DNA from: an uncultured Chloroflexia bacterium
GTDB lineage: Bacteria; Chloroflexota; Limnocylindria; Limnocylindrales; CSP1-4
Direction: 5' to 3'
Assembly (NCBI GenBank): GCA_963709605.1
Contig: CAVPWX010000020.1
Location: 401,337 to 465,336, forward strand
Length of the DNA stretch: 64,000 bases
Part shown: positions 46,072 to 64,000 of the stretch, one piece after another
Position numbering within the stretch: the first letter of the stretch is position 1
How the letters are laid out: each line of letters opens with the position of its first letter
The notes under the pieces: generated by a model
The model's database searches: none
What the model was told of the DNA's origin: nothing
What the model saw: only the letters and a program-made list of their open reading frames with translations
Translations under genes and position numbers: made by a program

Positions 46072-46827
46072 GTGACCGAGCGAGATCCCCAGCAGGAGCC
46101 GGTGCTCGACCGCCAGGTCGAGGAGATCCTGCGCGGGGTCGAGGGCGACATCCCCGAACCCGTGGTTGCGCTGCCCCGCAGGCCCCTCGACCGCGAGGAG
46201 CGGACGATCAAGGATGTTCTCCTCCGGATGGGCAGCATCATCGAGGAGCGGATCCGCCTCACTGTGGAGGCGCTCGAGACGCACGACGACGCGAAGGCGC
46301 TCGCCGTCATCGAGGGCGACGAGGAGATCAACGCCCTCCAGGTCCAGGCGATGGATCACGTGGTCCTGGCGATCGCCACCCAGCAGCCGGTGGCCCGCGA
46401 CCTGCGCTTCCTCCTCGCGCTCGACCGGATCGGCGCCGAGCTGGAGCGGATCGGCGACTCGGTCGCGAACGTCGCCAAGCGGGCCCGCGAGCTCGCCCCG
46501 GTGCCGCCCCTGGAGGGCCACCTGGCGATCCCCGAGATGGGGCGCATCGCCGCCCAGTTCCTCGCCGACACCATGCGGGCGCTGGTCGACAGCGATGCCG
46601 CGGCGGCCCGCGAGGTGGCGACCCACGACGACGACATCGACGCCCTCTACCACCGCTGCGTCGACCGCCTGGTCGAGCTCGCCAAGGCCGACCCCGACAA
46701 CGTCGAGCGGGCGATGAAGCTCCTCATCGCCGCCCGCTACATGGAGCGGGTCGGCGACCACATCACGAACATCGCGGAGGACGTCGTCTTCGTCTCCTCG
46801 GGCCAGCGCGAGGACCTCAACCCGTGA
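46072..46827 (+). CDS. phoU: Phosphate signalling complex protein PhoU
   Basis: Two PhoU repeats. RBS GGGAGGAGAG before the GTG at 46072. Confidence 0.85.
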   Translation: MTERDPQQEPVLDRQVEEILRGVEGDIPEPVVALPRRPLDREERTIKDVLLRMGSIIEERIRLTVEALETHDDAKALAVIEGDEEINALQVQAMDHVVLAIATQQPVARDLRFLLALDRIGAELERIGDSVANVAKRARELAPVPPLEGHLAIPEMGRIAAQFLADTMRALVDSDAAAAREVATHDDDIDALYHRCVDRLVELAKADPDNVERAMKLLIAARYMERVGDHITNIAEDVVFVSSGQREDLNP

Positions 46828-47258
46828 CGGGGGCCGCGCGGGTGCTGGTCGTCTGCACCGGCAACGCCGCGCGGAGCCAGATGGCCGAGGCGTTCCTCTC
46901 CCGCGAGGGGGTCGCCGCGGCATCGGCCGGGACGCACCCGGCCGGCGTCCACCCGCTCACCGTCGCCGTCCTCGCCGAGGTCGGCATCGACTGGTCCGGG
47001 GCCCATTCCAAGGGGATCGGCGAGATGCTCGACGGGCCCTGGGACCTCGTCCTGACCGTCTGCGACGATGCCCGCGAGGCGTGCCCCGTCGTGCCCGGGG
47101 CACGGCGGACCGCCCACGAGGGGTTCCCGGACCCGGCCGCGGCGACGGGCACCGAGGAGGATCGGCTCGCCGCGTTCCGGGCCGCCCGCGACGCGATCGC
47201 CGCCCGGATGACGACCCTCGCGGCGGACCTCCGCGCCGAACGGGAACCCGCCGGATGA
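46824..47258 (+). CDS. arsC: Arsenate reductase, thioredoxin-coupled LMW-PTP family (or LMW protein-tyrosine phosphatase)
   Basis: CTGNAARSQMAE P-loop, and a Cys-X7-Cys pair (TVCDDAREACP) as in ArsC Cys82/Cys89. It lacks the DPYY motif. The GTG overlaps the phoU stop (GTGA). Confidence 0.65.
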   Translation: MTGAARVLVVCTGNAARSQMAEAFLSREGVAAASAGTHPAGVHPLTVAVLAEVGIDWSGAHSKGIGEMLDGPWDLVLTVCDDAREACPVVPGARRTAHEGFPDPAAATGTEEDRLAAFRAARDAIAARMTTLAADLRAEREPAG

Positions 47259-48159: not shown

Positions 48160-48585
48160 TCAGCCGCAGCAGCCGCCGGCGGAGCGGCAGTTGGCGGCGA
48201 AGTCGATCCCGATCTGGGCGCTGACGACCGCGGCCGTCTCGCGACACACGCTCTGGAACGCGGCCGTGGCCGCGACGTACGCCGTGACGGACGGGACCGC
48301 GTACGTGGCCTGCTGGAGGCGCTCCAGCTCAACGCGCTGGGCATCGGGGAGGACCCCCATCATCAGCTCCACGCGGAGCTCGGCCTGGCGCAACTGGAAT
48401 GCCTCGATCGCCGATGTCGCGGCGGGATCCTTCGAGAGCGCCCGGTCGGCCGCCATGAGGGCGGTGAACTCGGGGCTGGCGCGGAGGGTCGCACCGAAGG
48501 CGCCGGCCGCCGAGAGCGCCTCGGCCTCCGCCGCCCGGGTGGCGGCCGCGCGATCGGCCGGGTCGAGTGTCGTTGGGTGGAGCAT
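48160..48585 (-). CDS. YlbF/YmcA-like (UPF0342) helical protein with a Cys-rich tail
   Basis: 141 aa, C-terminus ...ANCRSAGGCCG. RBS GGAGG. A paralog of the gene downstream. Confidence 0.4.
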   Translation of the reverse strand: MLHPTTLDPADRAAATRAAEAEALSAAGAFGATLRASPEFTALMAADRALSKDPAATSAIEAFQLRQAELRVELMMGVLPDAQRVELERLQQATYAVPSVTAYVAATAAFQSVCRETAAVVSAQIGIDFAANCRSAGGCCG

Positions 48586-48601
48586 CGGGTCAGGCCTCCG
48601 T

Positions 48602-50471
48602 TCAGGCGACGAGCGCGGTGGGGGCGAGGGTTCGCTCGAGGAGCTCGGTCAGCCGGTCGAGGCCCATGACCTCGCCGTCGAGCAGGGGCACCTCGAGGAC
48701 CGGGACCGAGAAGCGCTGCTCGATGTCGGCGAGGTATGACTGCTGCATGTTCCAGCGCGCCCGCGAGTACGGCGTCTGCAGGGCATCGTCGGGCAGGACC
48801 ATGTTGGCGACGACGAGTCCCAACGGGATCCCGAGCGATTCCAGCTCGGCGATGGCGCGCGTTGCCTCGACGATCGGCGTTGCCTCCGGGTACATCACGA
48901 AGGCGAACGTGCTCTCGGCCGGGTCGCGCATCATCTCGATGACCCGGCTGAACTGGGCCTTCGCGACGTCGTCGGCGGCGGCCGTGTCGACCGAGGCGAA
49001 GACCTTGATGTCGATCTGGCGGCTCCAGTCGATGGGGAGCTCGAGCAGCCGCAGGGTGTGGCCCGTCGGCGCCGTGTCGAAGACGGTGACGTCGAACGCG
49101 TCGCGGCTGGCCAGCTCGATGAACTGGTCGAACGCCGCCATCTCCTCGGTGCACGGCGAGTCGAGCTCCTCGCGCATCGCGGCGATCGAGGCCGGGCTCC
49201 GGCCGCGCGCGACCGCGTCGGCAATGATCCGATCGGTGTAGGCGATGGCCGCGGCCTTGGCGTCGACGCGGGCCGCCCAGAGGCCGTCCACGCCGTCCAC
49301 CGGCGCGGGCTCCGTCCCGACCGTCGCGCCGAGGACCTGCCCGATGTGGGCCGCGGGATCGGTCGTCACCAGGAGGGTGCGATGACCCTGGCGCGCCGAC
49401 CAGAGGGCGGTGGCGCAGGACGCGACCGTCTTGCCGACGCCGCCCTTGCCGGCAAAGAAGATCGTCCGAGGGCTCCCGTTCGGCAGGAGCGCCGCCGCCA
49501 CGGCCGCCTCGTCGTCGCGCGTCGCCCGCGTCGACCCGCGGTCCGCATGGCCGAAGGCCGGCCTCGTGGCGTGCTCGTCGGCGAGGAGCGGGACCAGGGC
49601 CCGCAGCCGCGCGATCCCGCGGACCTCGCCGTCGAGGAGCGGGACGCGCCGGGTCGGCATCGGCAGCTGGCGCGCGATCTCGGCGAGGTAGCGCTCCTGC
49701 ATCGCGATGCGGGCAGCGAAGAACGGGGTCGAGGCCTCCTCGGCGGGCAGGATCCCGTTGACGATGAGCTCCGTCGTGACGATCCCGAGGCGGGCCAGCT
49801 CGGCGCCGGCGCGCCGCGTCTCGGCGATCGCGGTCGCCTCTGGATGGAGCACGAACGCGAACCGTGTCAGCGACTGGTCGCGCAGCGCGGCAAGTGCCCG
49901 CTCGTACTTGACCTTCGCCTCGGCGATGGCCGCCGCGGGGCCGATGCACGTCTGGCCGGCGCCCGCGTCGGCCTGCGAGATGCTCTTCGACCACGCCTCG
50001 GGCAGCTCGAGCAGGCGCACCGTGTGGCCGGTCGGCGCCGTGTCGAAGATCACCAGGTCGAAGCCGGGCGCCGGTGGGCGGCGCTGCGGGGGCCGGCGCC
50101 GTCGGGTCGAGGAAGTCGGCGAACCGATCGAAGGCTGCGACCTCCGCGGTGCAGGGCCCGGCGAGCTGCTCCTCCATGACCCGCACGATCTCCGGCGGGA
50201 AGATCTCGCGGATCGGGGCGAGCGTCCGGTCGGTGTACTCGGCAGTCGCACGGTCGGGGTCGATCTCCATCGCCGACAGGCTCGGCACGCCCACGATCCG
50301 GGTGATCGCGTGGCCGATGGGCTGCTCGAACACGTCCGCGAGGTTGGATGCCGGGTCCGTCGTCACGATCAGGACGCGCGTGCCGGCATCGGCCTCCGCG
50401 ACCGCGGTCGTGCAGGCCATCGTCGTCTTGCCGACGCCGCCCTTGCCGGAGAAGAAGAGGAACTGGGTCAC
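48602..50471 (-). CDS. arsA: Arsenite-stimulated ATPase ArsA (apparent frameshift near 50100)
   Basis: Two halves, each with a P-loop (GKGGVGKTT, GKGGVGKTV) and the DTAPTGHT signature. Cys are present at the expected metalloid-site positions (GPCTAEVAAFDRF, GQTCIGP, SPCTEEMAAFDQF). Confidence 0.8.
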
Positions 50472-50498
50472 CGCGGATCCTTTCGGGAGCGCTGCGGC

Positions 50499-50834
50499 TC
50501 AGGCGTTGCTGGTGAGCTCGGCGCGGAGCTCGTCGAGGGTTGGGTAGGCGTCGGTCTTCACGATGCGTCCGCCCATCACGGTGATCGGCAGGACCTCGAG
50601 CTGGCGCTCCTTGATCAGCTGGTAGACCTCGCGGTTGCGCATGAAGGCCTGGGGGTCCGCGGTCATCATGTGGCGGACCACCGTCCTGCCCTCGGCCTCG
50701 AGCGTGAAGACCGCCTCGCTCAGGTCGACGAGCGTCGTATCGAGCACGGGACCGCAAAGCCCCGTCGGGCAGCAGAGCGGCGGGTCGAAGATCTCGACGT
50801 CGGGGGTCGCGGGGCCGGACAGCTGATCACTCAT
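50499..50834 (-). CDS. arsD: Arsenical resistance operon metallochaperone/repressor ArsD
   Basis: MSDQLSG...IFDPPLCCPTGLCGP N-terminal vicinal Cys motif and a thioredoxin-like fold. 111 aa. Confidence 0.75.
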   Translation of the reverse strand: MSDQLSGPATPDVEIFDPPLCCPTGLCGPVLDTTLVDLSEAVFTLEAEGRTVVRHMMTADPQAFMRNREVYQLIKERQLEVLPITVMGGRIVKTDAYPTLDELRAELTSNA

Positions 50835-51102
50835 GGGACGCTTGCTCCTGTGGGTGGCGGAGTGGAGCCGGGGCGGCCGGCTGGGTGAGCACGAGAGGAT
50901 CGACCGGTGAACGTGCCGCGGCCCGGGCGGCGTCAGCCGCGCTCCTGCCGCGGACCAGGTCACGGATGCGGTTGAACGCCAGCTCGAGGAGGGGCGTCTC
51001 GAAGAAGGGCCCGCAGGCACCTCCCGGGCAGCACGTCGGCTCAGCGAGTAGGTCGGTATCGGTCGCTCGGGGGTTGTCGGTCGCGTCATGCATGTAGAGC
51101 AT
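50827..51102 (-). CDS. ArsD-like N-terminal paralog (truncated or degraded)
   Basis: Contains TCCPGGACGP and LELAFNRIRDL, but the C-terminal half does not resemble ArsD. It overlaps the arsD start. Confidence 0.45.
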   Translation of the reverse strand: MLYMHDATDNPRATDTDLLAEPTCCPGGACGPFFETPLLELAFNRIRDLVRGRSAADAARAAARSPVDPLVLTQPAAPAPLRHPQEQASHE

Positions 51103-51403
51103 CCGACTGCAGAGCCTCGGCGACGGCGCGCTCGATGGCGGAGACGTTGAGCTTCCCGCCGCTGAAGCGGCGGATCCCGTCGATCATCACGACCGGCGGA
51201 ACGGCCTCGCCGGCCGCGATCGCCGCCTCGACGTCCGGGTGTCGGGCCATCTCGGGACCGAAGAGCTCGGCGTACTCGAAGGCGACGGCCGGCCCGAACC
51301 GCTCGGCGAGGCGCCGCTCGACGAACGCCGCGGCCGCCCGCCACGTCTTCCCGGGGTCGCAGGCTGCCATGGGCACCCCTACCACGACGACCGTGCTGGT
51401 CAT
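51086..51403 (-). CDS. Small thioredoxin-fold-like protein (possibly YuzD/DUF1462-like), hypothetical
   Basis: MTSTVVVVGVPMAACDPGKTW...; weak pattern similarity to DUF1462 disulfide oxidoreductases. The ATG overlaps the arsR stop. Confidence 0.35.
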   Translation of the reverse strand: MTSTVVVVGVPMAACDPGKTWRAAAAFVERRLAERFGPAVAFEYAELFGPEMARHPDVEAAIAAGEAVPPVVMIDGIRRFSGGKLNVSAIERAVAEALQSDALHA

Positions 51404-51825
51404 CGCGAGACCTCCGCGGCCAGTGGCAGGCGCGACAGTGGCGACGGCTCGAGACCCGTCGTACTGCGGGAGCCGCAGTCGGTGCACAGGCAGGCCGTGG
51501 CCGCGTCGGTGGTGGGAGTGAGGAGATCGACGACCGCGGCCCGCAGCGCCTCGACCCGCTCGACGTCGAGGGAGTAGAAGACCCAGCGGCCGCTCCGCCG
51601 CTCGCGGAGCAGGCCAACGCCCCGCAGCGTCCGAAGGTGGTGCGAGACGAGTGCCGTGCTCATGCCGAGCGCGTCGCCGACGTCGCAGACGCAGTGCTCT
51701 CCGTGGGCGAGGAGGGCCACGATGCGGGCACGGTTCGGCTCCGCGACCGCCTGCAGGACGGCGAGCTGATCGTGCGCCAGAGGGAGTGCGATCCCGTGCG
51801 CGGGGTGGGCTTTCATGGCTCCCAT
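51400..51825 (-). CDS. arsR: ArsR/SmtB family As(III)-responsive repressor
   Basis: HTH plus the GEHCVCDV metal site, like ELCVCDL in R773 ArsR. A C-terminal extension carries CLCTDC. Confidence 0.75.
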   Translation of the reverse strand: MGAMKAHPAHGIALPLAHDQLAVLQAVAEPNRARIVALLAHGEHCVCDVGDALGMSTALVSHHLRTLRGVGLLRERRSGRWVFYSLDVERVEALRAAVVDLLTPTTDAATACLCTDCGSRSTTGLEPSPLSRLPLAAEVSR

Positions 51826-58318: not shown

Positions 58319-58648
58319 TCACGCGAGGATCTCCCCGAGCGCCTCGAGCGCCCGCCGGCAGGCGGCGGCGTCGCGCTCGTAGTAGACCCGCCGGGTATCG
58401 GCGCCGACGCGGCTGGCGCGCACCAGCCCGGCGTCGCGGAGGCGGGCGAGGTGGTTGCTCACGTTGTTCTGCTGGGCGCCGAGGGCGGCGGCCATCTCGC
58501 AGACGCAGACGGGCCCGTCGCGGAGCATCCGCACGATGCTGGCCCGGTTCGGGTCGGCAAGGAGCGCGGCGGCCGCCGTGGCATCGCTCACGTCGGGCGC
58601 CGGGAGGTTCATTCGCAGGTCCTGGAGGACCGGCAGCTCAATCGGCAT
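58319..58648 (-). CDS. arsR: ArsR/SmtB family metalloid-responsive repressor
   Basis: HTH with the GPVCVCEM metal-binding site. Confidence 0.8.
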   Translation of the reverse strand: MPIELPVLQDLRMNLPAPDVSDATAAAALLADPNRASIVRMLRDGPVCVCEMAAALGAQQNNVSNHLARLRDAGLVRASRVGADTRRVYYERDAAACRRALEALGEILA

Positions 58649-58693
58649 CGGAGGTCTCCTCTGGCGTGCCGTTCATGGACGTGGCGATCGTTG

Positions 58694-59449
58694 TCATGTC
58701 AGGAGGATCCAGGCGCGCTGGATCGCGAGCGCCACGAGGGCGACGGCGAAGATCCGGGACAGGGTCTGGCTCTTCACCCAGCCGGCCGTGAAGCGAGCGC
58801 CGAGCCAGGCCCCGATGACCGCGGCGATCGAGGTGACGATCACCGTCGGCCAGTCGAAGGTCGCGGTCGGGAGGTGGGTGGCGAAAGCCGAGAAGGACGG
58901 CAGCGTCACCGCGACGGAGTTCGTGGCAGCGGCCAGGCGGGCGGAATAGCCGACCAGGGTGAGCGTCGGCATGAGCAGGAACCCGGGGCCCACGCCGAGA
59001 AACCCGGCGAAGACGGAGATCGGCACGGCCGCGCCGGCGGCCTTCGCCCTGTTGCGGTCGGTGATCTCGGCGACCACCTCGGTCGAGGCGCCCTTCGGCA
59101 GCGCCATCCGGACGGCGAGGAAGAGCAGCACACCGACGTAGAGCCACCAGACGATGTCGACGGTGGCGAACTGGAGGAGCCAGACGCCGAGCGGCGCCCC
59201 GATCGTGGTGATCGTCACCAGGATGAGCGCACCGCGCTTGTCGACCATGCCCTTGCGCCAGAAGGCGATCGCGGCGCTGATCGCGGTCAACCCGTTGAGC
59301 AGCAGCGCCCAGGGCTGGATCTCGTTGATGAGGTCGTAGCCGAACAGCCCCAGGACGGGGATGGCGATGAAGGCGACGCCGAGGCCGAGCATCCCCGACA
59401 GGAACGACAGGCCGAACAGCAGCGGCGTCAGGAGCAGCAGCATCTCCAC
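58694..59449 (-). CDS. TauE/SafE (DUF81) family anion exporter
   Basis: 251 aa, 7-8 TM segments, GMLGLGVAFIAIP and GFLGVGPGFLLMP motifs. Confidence 0.8.
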   Translation of the reverse strand: MEMLLLLTPLLFGLSFLSGMLGLGVAFIAIPVLGLFGYDLINEIQPWALLLNGLTAISAAIAFWRKGMVDKRGALILVTITTIGAPLGVWLLQFATVDIVWWLYVGVLLFLAVRMALPKGASTEVVAEITDRNRAKAAGAAVPISVFAGFLGVGPGFLLMPTLTLVGYSARLAAATNSVAVTLPSFSAFATHLPTATFDWPTVIVTSIAAVIGAWLGARFTAGWVKSQTLSRIFAVALVALAIQRAWILLT

Positions 59450-59453
59450 GGGA

Positions 59454-59906
59454 TCAGGCCACGATCTCGAACGTCGGCTCGACGACGATCTCGGACTTCA
59501 CGGAGTTGGCGACGAGGCTGAATCTCTGCGCCGACTTCAACGCCCGGCGGGCGCGGGCCTCGACGACGGCCGGCTGCTCCGCCCCGGCGCGGATGACGAT
59601 CCGCGGCCACAGCCGCAGGTAGGTGAAGGTCTCGGTCCGGTCGAGCTCGATGAGCTTGGTTCCCTCGGCCCTGCAGTCGTACGACTGCAGGTCGAGCCGG
59701 AACCGCTCGGTCGCCCAGATGAACATCATCATCACGCAGGTGTTCGCCGCGGCGACGAAGGCATCCTCGGGCGTCAGCACCCCGGGATGTCCCTGGGCAT
59801 CGGGTGGAGCCGAGAAGGGCATCTCCGGGCCGTTGCCCAAGGTGATCTGCCCCCAGTGCTCCCCCGTCCACGTCACCGTCGTGTGGTACGTCGCCCTGCG
59901 GCTCAC
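59454..59906 (-). CDS. OsmC/Ohr-family peroxiredoxin-like protein
   Basis: OsmC fold pattern with two Cys (...AANTCVMMMF... and ...DCRAEG...). The GTG overlaps the upstream stop (GTGA). Confidence 0.7.
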   Translation of the reverse strand: MSRRATYHTTVTWTGEHWGQITLGNGPEMPFSAPPDAQGHPGVLTPEDAFVAAANTCVMMMFIWATERFRLDLQSYDCRAEGTKLIELDRTETFTYLRLWPRIVIRAGAEQPAVVEARARRALKSAQRFSLVANSVKSEIVVEPTFEIVA

Positions 59907-60615
59907 GGCCGAGACCCCGTCGGGTGGCAGAAGGCGGCGTACTCGCGCGCGAGCGCGGCCGCGTACTCCTCGTCGGTCCCGGCCGGCACGTCGTTGTAGA
60001 TCTTCACGGTCTCGAGCAGCTCCTTCGCAACCTCCGCGCCGGGCGCCTTCCCCGCGCCGCGGAACTGCTCGAAGATCAGCGGCAGGGCCGCGAGGGGAAC
60101 CGGCCGTGCCGTCCACGTCCACGGTCTGCACCGGGATGGCAGACGCGCACGCACAGCCGGCCTGCGGCGCGGCCTCCACGAACGACCCGCGGCGCCGATC
60201 CCATCGCTCCCCGAGAAGCTCGTCGACGAGGCCGGCGACCCGGTCGGCGGTCACCTCGGCCGCCTGCCGGCCGGCGGCGTCCAGGCGGCGGGCGCCCCGG
60301 GGCCGGTCCAGGCCGTGCTCGGCCAGCAGATCGGTCACGACGACGCTCGCGGCTGGTTTGCCAGAGAACTGCTCGGTGGCCCGCGCCGCGCACCGCTTTT
60401 CGCAGCCGTCGACCGCGATCGTCGGGTAGAAACGGGCGAAGGCCCGGTCGCCTTCCCCGCCGGCCAGGAAGAGCGGCAGGCAGATGGTGACCGTGTCGTC
60501 GGGGCGGAGCTGCTCCAGCACCCTGCAGTGCGGCCAGGCGGGTCACCGTCCCCTCGGCCAGCTCCTCGCCGGAGCATGCGACGATCCCGACCTTGCGCTG
60601 CGGCAGCTCAGGCAT
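59903..60615 (-). CDS. DGC-domain (PF08859-like, Cys-rich putative Zn-binding) protein (apparent frameshifts)
   Basis: MPELPQRKVGIVACSGEE..., then ...ICLPLFLAGGEGD...YPTIAVDGCEKRCAAR..., in shifted frames. Confidence 0.45.
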
Positions 60616-61013
60616 GGTCGGATGCCTCCTCGCGGGAGACCAGGTCGTCGACGACGGTGGCGATCTCCTCGGCCACCGCATGGGCGAGCTGCTGTCCGCC
60701 CTCGTTCAGCTCGGCGATGCCCCGCGGCTTCAGCTCCCGGTTCCGCCGGTACACGTCGAGCACCGCGATGCCCTGGGCGACGTGCCCTCCGCTCTCCTCC
60801 ACCATCTTGGCGGCGCAGGCGAGCTTGCAGCCGTCGATCGTCACCGCCGGATGCGCCCTGACCGCGGCGCGGGCGTCCTCGTCACCCAGGACCAGGAGCG
60901 AGAGGGCCACGAGCCCCGTGGCCCCCGGCCGCAGAGTCCTCGGTGACCTCGTAGGCGGCCTCGCGGCTGACCGTGCCGTACGTCTTGCCGATGCCGCTGC
61001 AGGGCACGACCAT
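60608..61013 (-). CDS. DGC-domain protein (paralog; apparent frameshift near 60935)
   Basis: MVVPCSGIGKTYGTVSREAAYEV..., then ...AVTIDGCKLACAAKMVEESGG. Confidence 0.5.
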
Positions 61014-61033
61014 GACCTTGCGATCTTCGGGGC

Positions 61034-61483
61034 TCACGGCTTCTTCGCTTCCTCTTCAGCCTGGGCGCGCATGACCTCGAAGTACGCCTGCGGGTCCAGC
61101 AGGCGCTCGCGGTCGGCCGGCCAGTCGGAGGCCTCGATGACGGCGAGCCACCCTTCGCCGTACGGATCCTGGTTGATGGCCTCGGGGGACAGCTCCATCG
61201 CCGGGTTCACCTCGACGACCGTACCTCCGACGGGCGAGAGCACCTCCACGTTCGCCTTGATCGTCTCGATCGTCGCCACCTCGTCGCCGGCTGCCACGGC
61301 CGTGCCCTCCGCCTTGACCTCGGCGAAGGCGACGTCGCCATTGAGCTGCTGGAGGAAGTCCGTCATCCCGACACGGACCCGGTCGCCGTCCGCGAGGGCC
61401 CAGGCGCCCTCGGCGGTGTAGAGGCGATCGGTCGCGACCCGGAAGATGAACTTGTCGACCGTGGTCTCCAGGTAGTCGGGCAT
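61034..61483 (-). CDS. gcvH: Glycine-cleavage H-protein-like lipoyl carrier protein
   Basis: GcvH fold with a lipoyl-lysine context (ATIETIKANVEV). 149 aa with an acidic tail. Confidence 0.7.
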   Translation of the reverse strand: MPDYLETTVDKFIFRVATDRLYTAEGAWALADGDRVRVGMTDFLQQLNGDVAFAEVKAEGTAVAAGDEVATIETIKANVEVLSPVGGTVVEVNPAMELSPEAINQDPYGEGWLAVIEASDWPADRERLLDPQAYFEVMRAQAEEEAKKP

Positions 61484-61488
61484 GGGTT

Positions 61489-62913
61489 CTACCGCCTCTG
61501 AAAGTGGATGGTGGCGTCGCGGAAGCCGAGCGCTGCCTCCAGCATCGCCTCCGGCAACGTCGGATGGGCGTGCGTGGTCCAGGCGAGGTCGTCGGCCGTC
61601 GCTCCGACCTGGACCGCAAGAGCCCCCTCGGCGATGAGGTCGGTGGCGTGTGGGCCCAGGAGATGAACGCCCATCACCGTGCCGCTGCCCGCTTCGCACA
61701 CCAGCTTCACCAACCCATCCATCTCGCCGAGGATGCGTGCTCGGGGATTGGCTGAGAACGGGAACTGGGTGACCTTCACGTCTGCTCCCTGCCCTTGCGC
61801 CTGCGCCGCGGTCAGGCCGACGCTGGCCAGCTCGGGCCTCGTGAAGACGACACTTGGAACGGATCGGTAGTCCACGGTGCGACTGCCGCCGCATGCGTTC
61901 TCGGCCGCCATGCGCCCGTCGACCATGGCCTTGTGCGCCAGCATCGGACCGCCGATCGCGTCGCCGATCGCCCACACGTTGGGAACACTGGTCTCCAGGC
62001 GCTCGTTCACGGCGATCGCCCGACCGCTCATCGTCACGCCGACCTCGGCCAGGCCGAGACCATCGGTGTTCGGCCAGCGTCCCGTGGCGACGAGGACCCG
62101 ATCACCGTCGACTCGCGACGGAGCGCCTTTCGCGTCGCGATGGAACACCGCCAAGCCACTTCCGGCGGGCGCGATCTCCTCCACGTGGGCGCCGGTGATG
62201 ATGCCCATGCCCCGTCGCCGGAGCAGGAGCGCCAGGCGCTGGGCAATCCCCTCGTCGGTTGCGCCCGGCAGCAGGGTCGACATCATCTCCACGATGGTCA
62301 CGCGGCTGCCAAGGGCCTCGTAGATGCAGGCGAACTCGAGGCCGATGACACCCCCGCCGACCACGATCAGGCGGTCGGGGATCTCCGCGATGTCGAGCGC
62401 CTCGGTGCTGGTGATCACGCCGGGCAGGTCGAGGCCGGGGATCGGTGGCCGGGCGGGGATCGACCCCGGGGCCAGGATCACGCGCCTGGCCGACACGTTG
62501 ATCGCGTCGCCGGTGTCGGGCTGCACCCGGAGGGTGTCGGGCGCCGAAAGGTGGCCCGTGCCGCGCAGGAGGGTGACCCCCGACCTCTTCAGCAGGTGCT
62601 CGACCCCACCGACCAACGCGTCCACGGCTCCCTGCTTGTACGCCATGAGGGCGGGCGGGTCGGGCACGACCGTCGAGATGGCGAGGCCGAACTCGTGCGC
62701 ACGCCTCGCCTTCAGCAGCAGCTCTGTCGACGTGGTCAGGGCCTTGGTCGGGATGCAGCCGATGTTCAGGCAGGTGCCCCCTACCCGCTGGTTCTCGATG
62801 AGCACCGCGCTCGCGCCCAGCTGCGCTGCACGAAGCGCGGCCACGTAGCCGGCAGGACCACCACCCAAGACGGCCACGTCGAACCGGTCGTTCATCACAG
62901 TCGACAGTGTCAC
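61489..62913 (-). CDS. lpd: Dihydrolipoyl dehydrogenase (E3)
   Basis: FAD fold (VAVLGGGPAGYVAA), redox-active disulfide (GGTCLNIGCIPTK) and HAHPTLPEA interface motif. Confidence 0.8.
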   Translation of the reverse strand: MTLSTVMNDRFDVAVLGGGPAGYVAALRAAQLGASAVLIENQRVGGTCLNIGCIPTKALTTSTELLLKARRAHEFGLAISTVVPDPPALMAYKQGAVDALVGGVEHLLKRSGVTLLRGTGHLSAPDTLRVQPDTGDAINVSARRVILAPGSIPARPPIPGLDLPGVITSTEALDIAEIPDRLIVVGGGVIGLEFACIYEALGSRVTIVEMMSTLLPGATDEGIAQRLALLLRRRGMGIITGAHVEEIAPAGSGLAVFHRDAKGAPSRVDGDRVLVATGRWPNTDGLGLAEVGVTMSGRAIAVNERLETSVPNVWAIGDAIGGPMLAHKAMVDGRMAAENACGGSRTVDYRSVPSVVFTRPELASVGLTAAQAQGQGADVKVTQFPFSANPRARILGEMDGLVKLVCEAGSGTVMGVHLLGPHATDLIAEGALAVQVGATADDLAWTTHAHPTLPEAMLEAALGFRDATIHFQRR

Positions 62914-63017
62914 ATCGCATCGGGGGGCAACGCAGGGCCATTGGTCATCAGTTGCTGGGCTTGGTGGCGACGCCGACCGCTTGACCTTCGAGCGACTCGA
63001 AGGTCTACGATCCCCGC

Positions 63018-63188
63018 ATGCGCATCGCCATTCTCTCCGGCGTCCACTCCAGTCTGCTGGCGCTCGAGGCCGTCCTGGCCCACATCGCCTGGGTCGGCGT
63101 CGTCCGGCGCACGTTCGCGGTGATGTCGTCGGCTACGCGCCCGCTTGAGTTCGCCCGCCAGCTCCGGGAGGCGCGAGGGTACGGGTGA
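63018..63188 (+). pseudogene. Remnant of a metallophosphoesterase (YfcE-like) N-terminus, about 56 codons
   Basis: MRIAILSGVHSSLLALEAVLAHI.... The GDVVGYAP motif is visible only in a shifted frame before a stop. Confidence 0.4.
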
Positions 63189-63556
63189 GAATCTCGGAGC
63201 TCGCCCATCGCGCCGGTGTCAACCCATCCGCGATCCGGTTCTACGAGGAGATCGGGGTCCTGCCATCGCCGATCCGCCAGGCGAATGGCTATCGTGCTTA
63301 CAGCACCGACGACCTCGCCCGCCTGCGCCTGGTCGTCTCGCTCCGGCGGCTCGGACTCGGACCACATGACGCGGGCCGGCTGGCGCGGCTATGTCTGGAG
63401 CGCGGTGGGATCGACGGCGACCTTGTGCCCCTGCTCGCCGACCAGCGGGCGGCGATCGCCCGCCAGCGCGCGGATCTCGACCGACTCGAGAGCGAGCTGC
63501 TCGACCTCGAGCTGACGATCGCGGCCGCTGGCCGCGCAGCAAAGGAGAAACCAACG
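63185..63556 (+). CDS. MerR-family HTH regulator; reads in frame into the next ORF
   Basis: ISELAHRAGVNPSAIRFYEEIGVLPSP...YRAYSTDDLARLRLVVSLRRLGL, then a coiled-coil region. GAGGG RBS before the GTG. There is no stop before 63557. Confidence 0.6.
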
Positions 63557-64000
63557 ATGTCCGAGGCCCCGATCCGCACCCTGTTCGTCTGCACGGGCAA
63601 CAGCGCTCGCAGCCAGCTTGCCGAGGCGCTCCTCGCGCAGTTCGGAGGATCCGATTTCGAGGTCCACTCCGCCGGGACCGAGCCGAAGGGCGTCAACCCG
63701 TTCGCGGTGGAGGTGCTCGCGAGGCGCGGGATCGACTGGTCGCAGGCGACCAGCAAGTCGGTCGACAGGTTTGTGGGCCAGTCGTTCGACTACGTGATCA
63801 CCGTGTGTGACCGCGCCCGCCAGTCGTGCCCGGTCTTTCCGGGCAGCTACAACTCCCTCCATTGGGGTCTCGAGGACCCGGCCGAGGTCGAAGGGACCGA
63901 CGAAGAGAAGCGGGCGGCGTTCGAGCGCACGGCCATGGAGCTGGGCCAGCGACTGCGACCGTTCACGGAGATCGCCCTGCGGGCCGCGGGCCGAACCCGA
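63557..64000 (+). CDS. arsC: Arsenate reductase, LMW-PTP/thioredoxin-coupled family (partial at the window end). Possibly the C-terminal domain of a MerR-ArsC fusion.
   Basis: AAGGAG-N9-ATG, CTGNSARSQLAE P-loop, VITVCDRARQSCP Cys pair. Confidence 0.7.
   Translation, partial: MSEAPIRTLFVCTGNSARSQLAEALLAQFGGSDFEVHSAGTEPKGVNPFAVEVLARRGIDWSQATSKSVDRFVGQSFDYVITVCDRARQSCPVFPGSYNSLHWGLEDPAEVEGTDEEKRAAFERTAMELGQRLRPFTEIALRAAGRTR

What the first reader, a model, noticed from the sequence alone, without database searches (positions are those of the whole stretch)
63018..64000. MerR-family regulator reading in frame, with no stop codon, into an ArsC arsenate-reductase domain, beside a metallophosphoesterase remnant
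The frame from the GTG at 63185 encodes a MerR HTH and coiled coil. It continues without a stop codon through AAGGAGaaaccaacgATG into an ArsC (LMW-PTP family) domain. This is either a MerR-ArsC fusion or two genes that lost the intervening stop. A fusion would make a redox-active arsenate-sensing transcription factor, which would be unusual. The sequence just upstream is a 56-codon stump of a metallophosphoesterase (MRIAILSGVH...), whose stop overlaps the MerR start (GTGA). This indicates a past rearrangement at the island edge.
Basis: seen in the sequence. Interest (0 to 1): 0.6.

Follow-up and report, generated by a model that had tools for sequence, protein, structure and literature searches.

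The report
Conserved MerR–arsenate reductase fusion regulator
A DNA-binding switch of the MerR type is genuinely fused to a complete arsenate-reducing enzyme in one gene that many soil Chloroflexota share, and it probably turns on its own small arsenic-detoxification operon; nobody appears to have studied it.

Summary
From GTG 63185 one frame runs without a stop through a MerR DNA-binding domain, a long helix and a complete ArsC domain to the window end. It is not a lost stop. Three independent assemblies match the window at 99.7-99.9% with no gaps, and identical 278-aa proteins exist. At least 118 protein clusters (70-100% identical) have the same architecture, mostly from Chloroflexota MAGs.

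New findings:
1. A CueR-like promoter (TTGACC, 19-nt spacer holding a perfect 10+10 palindrome, TACGAT; 62981-63011) sits upstream. It occurs once in each of the 16 fusion loci whose upstream DNA could be read. The start codon lies 6-7 nt after the -10, implying a leaderless mRNA.
2. In relatives the gene is followed closely or with overlap, on the same strand, by ACR3 or an aquaporin, and ArsM/ArsR/ArsDA lie nearby.
3. The linker keeps a ribosome-binding site and an ATG/GTG. This suggests two products, a regulator and a free ArsC, as in TipAL/TipAS.
4. The 56-codon ORF is a deleted YfcE-like phosphoesterase. The 555-nt net loss keeps its stop overlapping the GTG.

The sensing mechanism (arsenate-driven thiol switch or arsenite binding) is inferred. 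I found no literature on this fusion. I rate it a new variant of a known kind, of moderate interest.

The parts
62981..62986 (+). -35 hexamer TTGACC of a MerR-type promoter
   Evidence: sequence. Conserved in all 16 fusion loci whose upstream DNA could be read. Identical to the -35 of E. coli PcopA (PMC9004249).
62983..63005 (.). Palindromic operator GACCTTCGAG-cga-CTCGAAGGTC lying inside the 19-nt spacer
   Evidence: 10-nt arms, 100% complementary, 3 nt apart; it is the only match in the 64 kb even with 3 mismatches allowed (expected 0.00-0.02 by chance). One copy per fusion locus.
63006..63011 (+). -10 hexamer TACGAT, 19 nt after the -35 and 6 nt before the ATG at 63018, implying a leaderless mRNA
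   Evidence: The geometry TAnnnT + 6-7 nt + start codon is conserved in relatives. The transcription start itself is inferred, not measured.
63018..63188 (+). 56-codon remnant of a YfcE-like metallophosphoesterase gene (pseudogene stub). It is still an open frame from the leaderless ATG to the original stop.
   Evidence: alignment with the full-length genes of L029 and L002 shows that the first ~127 nt and last ~45 nt are kept, with a 1-nt deletion, a 554-nt deletion, and D8G/N12S in the metal-binding motif; no Pfam hit; the L029 orthologue is YfcE-like; the same stub is present in L157 and L028; L078 covers only its first 33 codons, up to the contig end.
63185..63188 (+). GTGA overlap of the stub's stop codon with the fusion gene's start codon (translational coupling)
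   Evidence: The full-length MPE genes have the same 4-nt overlap (L029 5858/5861; L153 6001/6004). Other stubs also end in an overlap.
63185..64000 (+). merR-arsC fusion gene, codons 1-272 of 278 (cut by the window end)
63185..63403 (+). Winged helix-turn-helix DNA-binding domain (aa 1-73), closest to CueR/MerR/CadR. It includes the invariant Cys70 (63392-63394).
   Evidence: Cys70 is conserved in more than 99% of 119 homologues.
63413..63544 (+). Long helix (aa 77-120), the expected antiparallel coiled-coil dimerisation helix. It starts at the near-invariant Asp77.
   Evidence: AF2 model, helix 77-120. Asp77 is conserved in 67 of 68 sequences.
63542..63559 (+). Internal Shine-Dalgarno AAGGAG (63542-63547), a 9-nt gap, then in-frame ATG (63557-63559, Met125). 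This is a candidate second start giving a 154-aa free ArsC.
   Evidence: 108 of 112 homologues have an M or V exactly 4 residues before PIR (111 of 112 have one within 1-5 residues: 91 M, 20 V); every Val at that position is GTG (base rate 0.30); Arg codons just upstream are AGR in 31 of 65 against 83 of 1571 elsewhere (Fisher p 1e-20); an SD-like 4-mer is present in 47 of 49.
63572..63985 (+). Thioredoxin-type ArsC (LMW-PTP fold) domain, aa 130-267. Key codons: Cys136 (63590-63592), Arg142 (63608-63610), Cys208 (63806-63808), Cys215 (63827-63829), Asp231 (63875-63877).
   Evidence: the alignment to B. subtilis ArsC 1jl3 (E 3e-32) aligns the query's CTGNSARS, VCDRARQSCP and HWGLEDP with the chain's CTGNSCRS, LCGDAADKCP and HWGFDDP; their numbering as C10/R16/C82/C89/D105 is my own knowledge of the pI258/B. 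subtilis enzymes. Foldseek TM 0.90-0.95 to ArsC2 of D. indicus, B. subtilis ArsC and pI258 ArsC; the three Cys are invariant in the 70-100% identity clade.

Best explanation
This is a genuine single gene that is widely conserved in Chloroflexota. It encodes a MerR-family transcription factor in which the C-terminal metal-binding loop of a CueR-like ancestor has been replaced by a complete thioredoxin-type arsenate reductase (ArsC) domain.

The protein most likely binds as a dimer to the palindrome inside the 19-nt-spacer promoter at 62981-63011. It would hold that promoter off without inducer and activate it by DNA distortion when arsenic is present. It thereby controls its own leaderless operon. 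In this window the operon is a decayed phosphoesterase stub plus the fusion gene. In relatives it also contains ACR3 or an aquaporin.

The signal is probably read by the ArsC domain. One route is arsenate turnover, which passes through Cys136-arsenate, a Cys136-Cys208 disulfide and a Cys208-Cys215 disulfide, and is reset by thioredoxin. The other route is binding of the arsenite product by the cysteines, possibly with Cys70.

A conserved internal ribosome-binding site and start codon probably also yield a free 154-aa ArsC from the same mRNA. The regulator and the bulk enzyme would then rise together, as with TipAL/TipAS.

Shown: the ORF, the domains, the catalytic residues, the promoter/operator and its conservation, the gene neighbourhoods, and the conservation of the internal start. 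Inferred: DNA binding, the inducer, activation, the leaderless transcript, and the second product.
For: The fusion is real. Searches show identical 278-aa proteins and gap-free independent assemblies. In one search, 118 of the best 120 clusters carry MerR+LMWPc at 273-287 aa.

Both domains look functional. Pfam and NCBIfam hit both. PDB sequence matches are to ArsC (E 5e-36 to 3e-32) and to CueR/MerR (E ~1e-11). The AF2 model has pLDDT 86 with a wHTH, a 44-residue helix and an ArsC fold, and Foldseek gives TM 0.90-0.95 to solved ArsCs. The P-loop Cys/Arg, the Cys pair and the Asp are invariant in the main clade.

The promoter is CueR-like. It has a perfect 10+10 palindrome in a 19-nt spacer, is unique in the window, and occurs once in each of the 16 fusion loci whose upstream DNA could be read, always upstream of the fusion gene or of the gene or stub that precedes it. 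It is 19/27 identical, with the same geometry, to E. coli PcopA (PMC9004249).

The context is arsenic. ACR3 starts 5 nt (L155) or 77 nt (L156) after the fusion gene. A MIP gene overlaps it in L030. ArsM and ArsR lie adjacent in L030 and L156, and ArsA/ArsD are nearby in L153 and in the window.

The internal start is conserved. The precedent is TipAL/TipAS (PMC7762955).

A divergent clade has lost all three catalytic Cys yet keeps the fusion (P0122). This argues that the domain also has a non-enzymatic, regulatory role.

A natural ArsR-ArsC fusion confers an As(V) response (review PMC11672702).
Against: There are no experimental data on any family member. The exact operator sequence is not specific to this family. 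It also precedes CueR-like/CopZ operons and Firmicutes MATE/ABC transporter genes, so it identifies the DNA-binding clade, not the signal.

In the window and its closest relatives, no arsenite exporter lies in the operon, and the divergent neighbours are Lpd/GcvH/DGC/OsmC. That would also fit a thiol or peroxide stress role.

The ArsC domain scores below NCBIfam's equivalog cut-off (132.7 against 174.3).

SD-like strength in the linker is not unique within the gene: 20% of control windows are as strong. The codon-usage and M/V statistics come from related sequences, which are not independent.

The AF2 model is a monomer with pTM 0.56, so how the two domains communicate is unknown.
Confidence: 0.6

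Rival explanations
1. Sequencing or assembly error. Two ordinary adjacent genes (merR and arsC) appear fused because a stop codon or a frameshift was lost in this assembly.
For: The window does carry apparent frameshifts in the neighbouring DGC genes. An SD and an ATG sit at the domain boundary.
Against: Two independent assemblies that cover the linker (L157, L028) agree with 0 gaps; L078 agrees over the promoter and the first 33 stub codons. Identical 278-aa proteins come from the ENA, JGI, Logan and NCBI sources. In one search, 118 of the best 120 clusters, down to 70% identity, have the same uninterrupted architecture.
Confidence: 0.01
2. The fusion is real, but the ArsC domain is only a tethered enzyme, fused for co-expression and stoichiometry. 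It is not the sensor. The MerR part would be constitutive, or would respond through its own residues (for example Cys70) or through a partner protein.
For: ArsC is fused to many unrelated partners: ArsR, GNAT/ArsN, Acr3 and AqpS (PMC6205960). Reviewers describe it as 'predestined for fusions'. The conserved internal start suggests the enzyme also works alone.
Against: MerR-family activators need a C-terminal effector module, and the ArsC domain sits exactly where that module should be, about 10 residues after the coiled coil. The P0122 clade keeps the fused domain after losing all catalytic Cys, which is hard to explain for a purely enzymatic passenger. Cys70 and Asp77 are near-invariant next to the junction.
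Confidence: 0.2
3. The protein senses general thiol-oxidative stress or phosphate-type oxyanion stress rather than arsenic. It would use the redox-active cysteines or the P-loop of the LMW-PTP fold, and it would control antioxidant or phosphate genes.
For: In the window, L029, L153 and L154 the divergent neighbours are Lpd, GcvH, two DGC proteins, OsmC and TauE. In L030 and L032 the pst-phoU operon is adjacent.
Against: The operator occurs only once per locus and faces the fusion operon, not the neighbours. The genes that follow it closely or with overlap on the same strand are ACR3 or MIP. The residue set is that of arsenate reductases rather than of protein phosphatases, and the closest structures are ArsCs.
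Confidence: 0.1

Closest known systems
ArsR-ArsC (ArsRC) fusion proteins of Leptospirillum ferriphilum, Microbacterium, Sinorhizobium and Paracoccus
   Same: A transcription factor is fused N-terminally to an LMW-PTP-type ArsC in one polypeptide within arsenic loci (PMC6205960; PMC6514093). The Paracoccus fusion improves detection of As(V) (PMC11672702). Such HTH_5+LMWPc proteins appear among the hits here (P0165, P0167, P0179).
   Different: The DNA-binding module here is MerR-type. It is expected to act as an activator on a 19-nt-spacer promoter by DNA distortion. ArsR/SmtB proteins are repressors released by As(III). The known As(III)-binding Cys sites of ArsR are absent.
CueR (E. coli Cu(I) sensor) and the metal-sensing MerR subfamily (MerR, ZntR, CadR/PbrR)
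   Same: These are the best-matching regulators by sequence and by fold. The promoter has the same architecture and is 19/27 identical to PcopA, including TTGACCTTC...GAAGGT and the 19-nt spacer. Short CueR-like genes that follow CopZ-like genes use the same operator (L099).
   Different: The metal-binding loop after the dimerisation helix (Cys112/Cys120 in CueR) is missing. A 150-residue ArsC domain follows instead.
TipAL/TipAS of Streptomyces lividans (and AlbA/AlbAS)
   Same: It is an autoregulated MerR-family gene whose C-terminal effector domain is also made alone from an in-frame internal start codon (PMC7762955). Here a conserved SD plus ATG/GTG precedes the ArsC domain.
   Different: The effector domain here is an enzyme (ArsC), not the TipAS antibiotic-binding domain. 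The short product has not been demonstrated.
Thioredoxin-coupled arsenate reductases (S. aureus pI258 ArsC, B. subtilis ArsC, Deinococcus indicus ArsC2)
   Same: It has the same fold (TM 0.90-0.95), 42-45% identity to the D. indicus and B. subtilis enzymes and 34-36% to pI258 ArsC, a CX5R P-loop, the Cys82/Cys89-equivalent pair and the Asp105 equivalent.
   Different: The domain is covalently attached to a DNA-binding domain. It scores below the NCBIfam equivalog cut-off. The window also carries a separate stand-alone ArsC next to phoU (46824-47258).

Membership tests
MerR family of transcription regulators | N-terminal winged helix-turn-helix (Pfam MerR / MerR_1) | tested here: met
   MerR_1 at 59.4 bits (cut-off 21.6) and MerR at 54.9 bits (cut-off 28.2), on aa 1-65.
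MerR family of transcription regulators | Long dimerisation helix (antiparallel coiled coil) following the DNA-binding domain | tested here: met
   AF2 helix at 77-120 with block pLDDT of 69-89 (71 for residues 71-80, 84-89 for 81-110, 69 for 111-120); a weak MerR-DNA-bind hit on aa 44-108. Dimerisation itself was not tested.
MerR family of transcription regulators | Palindromic operator inside a promoter with an over-long (19-20 nt) -35/-10 spacer | tested here: met
   TTGACC, then 19 nt containing a perfect 10+10 inverted repeat, then TACGAT. It is conserved in the 16 fusion loci whose upstream DNA could be read.
MerR family of transcription regulators | Effector-dependent activation by DNA distortion | not testable with these tools
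   This needs in vitro transcription or footprinting.
CueR / metal-sensing MerR subfamily | C-terminal metal-binding loop with two Cys (CueR Cys112 and Cys120) directly after the dimerisation helix | tested here: not met
   the alignment to CueR stops at about residue 109-121. A 9-residue linker and the ArsC domain follow, and there is no CxxxxxxxC loop.
Thioredoxin-coupled LMW-PTP-type arsenate reductase (pI258 / B. subtilis ArsC) | CX5R phosphate/arsenate-binding loop with the nucleophilic Cys (Cys10, Arg16) | tested here: met
   CTGNSAR, with Cys136 and Arg142 invariant in the main clade.
Thioredoxin-coupled LMW-PTP-type arsenate reductase (pI258 / B. subtilis ArsC) | Redox-relay Cys pair (Cys82, Cys89) and the general-acid Asp105 | tested here: met
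   VCDRARQSCP and HWGLEDP align with LCGDAADKCP and HWGFDDP of 1jl3. Cys208, Cys215 and Asp231 are conserved in 66 of 68 sequences.
Thioredoxin-coupled LMW-PTP-type arsenate reductase (pI258 / B. subtilis ArsC) | Score above the curated equivalog cut-off (TIGR02691) | tested here: not met
   132.7 bits against a cut-off of 174.3. It is therefore a related subfamily, not a certified equivalog.
Thioredoxin-coupled LMW-PTP-type arsenate reductase (pI258 / B. subtilis ArsC) | Arsenate reduction coupled to thioredoxin | not testable with these tools
   An enzyme assay is required.
TipA-class dual-product MerR genes | In-frame internal start codon that yields the C-terminal domain alone | tested here: inconclusive
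   The sequence signal is conserved. No protein-level evidence exists, and the SD free-energy profile alone is not unique.
TipA-class dual-product MerR genes | TipAS-type effector domain (PF07739) | tested here: not met
   the C-terminal domain is LMWPc.
ArsR-ArsC fusions | ArsR/SmtB winged-helix (HTH_5/HTH_20) N-terminal domain | tested here: not met
   only MerR models hit the N-terminal part.
YfcE-like metallophosphoesterase (the upstream 56-codon ORF) | Complete calcineurin-like domain with the metal-binding motifs (DxH ... GD ... GNH[DE] ... H ... GH) | tested here: not met
   there is no Pfam hit, 185 of 241 codons are lost, and the first motif SDVH has become SGVH. It is a pseudogene remnant.

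The most novel reading that the evidence does not exclude
The ArsC domain is a catalytic sensor. Each turnover of arsenate drives the Cys136 to Cys208 to Cys215 disulfide relay, and the resulting conformational change flips a MerR-type promoter on. Thioredoxin resets it. This would be a one-component cytoplasmic transcription factor that reads arsenate itself, with signal strength set by the balance of As(V) flux and thiol-reducing power. The same gene would also supply the bulk enzyme from an internal start. By my own knowledge, characterised cytoplasmic arsenic regulators are ArsR/SmtB repressors that sense As(III) or MAs(III).
Probability: 0.3. Interest if true: 0.75.

Novelty: new variant of a known kind. 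Interest (0 to 1): 0.55.

Why it matters
If the model holds, arsenic control in a large, mostly uncultured soil phylum runs through a MerR-type activator rather than the textbook ArsR repressor. In that activator an enzyme domain takes the place of the metal-binding loop.

It would be a compact natural example of an enzyme used as a sensor. It would be a candidate part for arsenate-specific biosensors, because current ArsR sensors see As(III). It would extend the TipAL/TipAS principle of one gene giving both a regulator and its free effector domain to a detoxifying enzyme.

The repeated decay of the first gene of these leaderless operons into short ORFs that keep the overlapping stop/start is a separate, testable hint. 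It suggests that termination-reinitiation coupling is under selection.

For annotation, these proteins are currently labelled either 'arsenate reductase' or 'MerR family transcriptional regulator'. Each label is only half right.

Tried and rejected
1. The promoter scanner found nothing because it only allows 16-18-nt spacers. The MerR-type promoter was found by eye, with the repeat finder, and confirmed by pattern searches.

2. I hoped the operator would define the regulon. The metagenome scan showed that the exact motif is shared with CueR-like/CopZ operons and with Firmicutes MATE/ABC transporter promoters. It therefore marks a DNA-binding clade and not this family. No second target was found in the window.

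3. An anti-SD duplex-energy profile along 22 genes put its minimum in the linker, but it was not decisive: 20% of control windows were as strong, and conserved Gly/Glu motifs also score well. The M/V(GTG) alternation and the AGR codon enrichment were more informative.

4. Eight literature searches and six of the papers they led to gave no report of a MerR-ArsC fusion or of a MerR-type arsenic regulator. Subscription-only literature is not covered.

5. I rejected 'rearrangement at an island edge'. Gene order on both sides of the stub is collinear with L029 and L153.

6. P0180, an apparent 41%-identity member, looks like a frameshifted translation and was ignored.

7. The AF2 monomer (pTM 0.56) cannot show how the ArsC domain contacts the DNA-binding domain of the partner subunit. 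I drew no conclusion from the relative orientation of the domains.
Full report
**1. The observation**

A frame opens at GTG 63185, the first possible start after an in-frame stop 14 codons upstream. It runs for 272 codons to the last base of the window without a stop.

Pfam places MerR/MerR_1 on residues 1-65 and LMWPc on residues 133-259. NCBIfam's best models are the pI258-type thioredoxin-dependent ArsC for the C-terminal half and MerR/CueR/CadR/ZntR for the N-terminal half. AAGGAG lies at 63542-63547 and an in-frame ATG at 63557-63559 (Met125). The 56-codon ORF MRIAILSGVH... occupies 63018-63188, and its TGA overlaps the GTG (GTGA, 63185-63188).

**2. It is not a lost stop**

Three independently assembled contigs from other data sets match the window at 99.7-99.9% with no gaps. 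They are L157 (Logan), L028 (ENA megahit) and L078 (JGI). L157 and L028 cover the linker. Proteins P0273 and P0274 are identical to the window's 272 residues and end six residues later, at 278 aa.

In the homology search, 118 of the 120 best clusters carry both domains in one chain of 273-287 aa, at 70-100% identity. Named genomes are almost all Chloroflexota MAGs. More distant fusion clades exist at 47-56% identity (P0122, P0123, P0144).

**3. Anatomy of the protein**

An AlphaFold2 model built from 68 family members has mean pLDDT 86. It shows a winged HTH (residues 1-73), one 44-residue helix (77-120), a 9-residue linker and an alpha/beta domain (130-267). Foldseek matches that domain to ArsC2 of Deinococcus indicus, B. 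subtilis ArsC and pI258 ArsC at TM 0.90-0.95. The N-terminal part matches CueR.

The HMMER alignment to B. subtilis ArsC shows every residue of the thioredoxin-coupled mechanism. These are the CX5R loop (Cys136, Arg142), the relay pair Cys208/Cys215 with the same six-residue spacing, and Asp231. The numbering of the B. subtilis residues as Cys10, Arg16, Cys82, Cys89 and Asp105 is my own knowledge.

Across 119 full-length homologues the three ArsC cysteines are invariant. A fourth cysteine, Cys70, at the end of the helix before the coiled coil, is conserved in more than 99%. Asp77 is also nearly invariant.

The two-Cys metal-binding loop that defines CueR-type sensors is absent, and the ArsC domain stands in its place. 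The protein is therefore a MerR-family member but not a CueR. It is ArsC-like, although below NCBIfam's equivalog cut-off (132.7 against 174.3 bits).

**4. The promoter**

The promoter lies between the divergent lipoamide dehydrogenase gene (61489-62913, minus strand) and the 56-codon ORF. It reads TTGACC (62981-62986), then a 19-nt spacer, then TACGAT (63006-63011). The spacer and the -35 together contain a perfect 10+10 inverted repeat, GACCTTCGAG-cga-CTCGAAGGTC. The generic promoter scanner missed it because it allows only 16-18-nt spacers.

The motif occurs once in the window even with three mismatches allowed, where 0.00-0.02 matches are expected by chance. It occurs exactly once in each of the 16 fusion-bearing loci whose upstream DNA could be read (L007 is masked by N and L028 starts too late). 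In every case it lies upstream of the fusion gene or of the gene or stub that precedes it.

It is 19/27 identical, with identical geometry, to the CueR-bound E. coli copA promoter TTGACCTTCCCCTTGCTGGAAGGTTTA (PMC9004249). The start codon follows the -10 hexamer by 6-7 nt in essentially all loci. That leaves no room for a leader, so a leaderless mRNA is inferred but not shown.

A scan of metagenome contigs gave a caveat. The exact operator is also used by short CueR-like regulators, one of them after a CopZ-like gene. It also precedes MATE/ABC transporter genes in low-GC gut bacteria. It therefore identifies the DNA-binding clade rather than the signal.

**5. What the regulator controls**

Nine different neighbourhoods were read.
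- In L155 an ACR3 arsenite exporter starts 5 nt after the fusion gene. In L156 it starts 77 nt after it.
- In L030 a MIP channel gene overlaps the end of the fusion gene. ArsR and an ArsM that scores above NCBIfam's cut-off lie alongside.
- L156 also has ArsM and ArsR.
- L153 has ArsR, ArsA and ArsD nearby.
- L030 and L032 lie beside pst-phoU.

The window itself carries phoU plus a stand-alone ArsC (46072-47258) and ArsA/ArsD (48363-51617, minus strand).

The fusion thus takes the place of arsR plus arsC at the head of minimal arsenic operons. Within this window its only recognisable target is its own two-cistron operon.

**6. The phosphoesterase remnant**

In the syntenic relatives L029 and L153 (83% and 81% protein identity), a 241-aa YfcE-like metallophosphoesterase begins at the leaderless start. 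It ends in the same 4-nt overlap with the fusion gene. L034 and L073 have it too.

Alignment shows what the window retains. It keeps about 127 nt of the 5' end, with a 1-nt deletion and D8G/N12S in the first metal-binding motif. It also keeps about 45 nt of the 3' end, and 554 nt have been deleted in between. The total loss of 555 nt (185 codons) returns the frame to the original stop. L157 and L028 carry the same junction.

Gene order on both sides is collinear with L029. This is therefore decay of one gene and not evidence of a rearrangement at an island edge.

Other lineages have independent mini-ORFs between the leaderless promoter and the fusion gene, and each ends in an overlapping stop/start:
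- 18 codons in L030;
- 13 codons in L061 and L068;
- 23 codons in L091;
- 5 codons in L043.

In L083 the fusion gene itself has been reduced to a 28-codon stub that overlaps a MIP gene. Six of six stubs keep the junction. This suggests selection for termination-reinitiation coupling, but the sample was chosen post hoc.

**7. The internal start**

In 108 of 112 homologues a Met or Val lies exactly four residues before the PIR motif that opens the ArsC domain; 111 of 112 have one within one to five residues (91 Met, 20 Val).

At the DNA level (49 unique sequences):
- Every such Val is GTG, although GTG is only 30% of Val codons elsewhere in these genes.
- Arg codons in the six preceding codons are AGR in 31 of 65 cases, against 83 of 1571 elsewhere (Fisher p 1e-20).
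- 47 of 49 sequences have an SD-like 4-mer at the right distance.

These sequences are related, so the p-values overstate independence. A simple anti-SD energy profile was not decisive either.

The pattern matches the TipA precedent. In that MerR-family gene, two alternative start codons give the regulator TipAL and the free effector domain TipAS (PMC7762955).

The divergent clades point the same way. P0122 has lost all three catalytic cysteines (C136S, C208S, C215R). P0123 has lost one (C208S). Both lack the internal Met, yet both keep the fusion, Cys70 and Asp77. The fused domain therefore appears to have a role beyond catalysis.

**8. Mechanism proposed**

The parts listed above are shown. 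The following is inferred. A dimer binds the palindrome and represses the sub-optimal promoter. Arsenic converts it to an activator that realigns the -35 and -10 elements, as established for MerR and CueR.

The signal is read by the ArsC domain in one of two ways. In the first, arsenate turnover acts as the signal. The Cys136-Cys208 then Cys208-Cys215 disulfide relay is accompanied by a large conformational change in the pI258 enzyme (my own knowledge), and thioredoxin resets it. In the second, the arsenite product is bound by the thiols, possibly together with Cys70 of the partner subunit.

Output is positive autoregulation of the fusion, of the free ArsC and, where present, of ACR3 or MIP. 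A natural ArsR-ArsC fusion that improves As(V) detection shows that tethering ArsC to a regulator can work in this way (PMC11672702).

Rivals:
- A tethered enzyme with no sensing role (0.2).
- A general thiol or oxyanion stress sensor (0.1). This is suggested by the Lpd/GcvH/DGC/OsmC neighbours in the window's own lineage.
- An assembly error (0.01).

**9. Comparison and novelty**

Known ArsC fusions are ArsR-ArsC, Acr3-ArsC, AqpS-ArsC and ArsN-ArsC (PMC6205960). The first and last of these also appear among the hits here. Eight full-text searches found no MerR-ArsC fusion and no MerR-type arsenic regulator. Sources label these proteins 'arsenate reductase' or 'MerR family transcriptional regulator'.

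I classify the finding as a new variant of known kinds. It combines a MerR one-component regulator, ArsC fusions and TipA-like dual products. The family is real and widespread but uncharacterised.

Interest is moderate, at 0.55. The architecture is solid and the model is directly testable, but the function rests on inference.

Noticed in passing
L030 7948-8004; L061/L068; L091; L043; L083 (oriented coordinates); window 63018-63188: There are independent short ORFs of 5-56 codons between the leaderless promoter and the next gene. Each starts at the leaderless start codon and ends in a 4-nt stop/start overlap (ATGA, GTGA or TTGA). In L083 the fusion gene itself is reduced to a 28-codon stub coupled to a MIP gene. 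This suggests selection to keep termination-reinitiation coupling while the first gene decays.
   Followed up: partly
window 59927-61037 (minus strand): The two DGC-domain genes are intact in L029 and L153. In the window they match in three and in two different reading frames respectively (tblastn). They are either indel errors in the assembly or pseudogenes. The neighbouring Lpd, GcvH and OsmC genes are intact.
   Followed up: partly
window 58622-62913 (minus strand); L029 698-5032; L153 874-5148: A conserved divergent cluster lies next to the fusion operon: dihydrolipoyl dehydrogenase, a GcvH-like lipoyl carrier, two DGC proteins, OsmC and TauE. It looks like a lipoyl-dependent peroxidase or thiol-redox set embedded in an arsenic region. 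Its link to arsenic is unexplained.
   Followed up: partly
window 46072-47258 (+), 48363-50471 (-), 50499-51617 (-): PhoU is immediately followed by a stand-alone LMW-PTP-type ArsC that is 56% identical to the fused domain. ArsA and ArsD lie a few kb away. The genome therefore has a second, unfused arsenate reductase linked to phosphate control, as in L032 (pst-phoU-LMWPc).
   Followed up: partly
L099 1342-1760; L105; L052; L045, L048, L053-L055, L082: The exact operator TTGACCTTCRAG-N3-CTYGAAGGT also precedes short CueR-like MerR genes in L099, L105 and L052, in L099 after a CopZ-like gene. It also precedes MATE or ABC transporter genes in low-GC gut metagenome contigs. One DNA-recognition solution is thus shared across very different MerR sensors.
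   Followed up: partly
P0122 (281 aa), P0123 (282 aa): These divergent fusion clades have a degenerate ArsC domain. P0122 has lost Cys136, Cys208 and Cys215, and its P-loop reads SNFNAAR. P0123 has lost Cys208. Both lack the internal Met but keep Cys70 and Asp77.
   Followed up: partly
L071 2463-2486 (minus strand): A second copy of the operator lies on the opposite strand about 1.6 kb downstream of the fusion gene. It is next to a different promoter-like site and another MerR paralogue that appears frameshifted.
   Followed up: no
L028 946-1728 (-); L153 7809-9059 (-): Just beyond the window's end, the next gene is a convergent radical SAM/SPASM maturase. Its best NCBIfam hit is the tungsten-cofactor oxidoreductase maturase, below cut-off. 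In L153 it is followed by ArsR, two YlbF-like genes, ArsA and ArsD.
   Followed up: no
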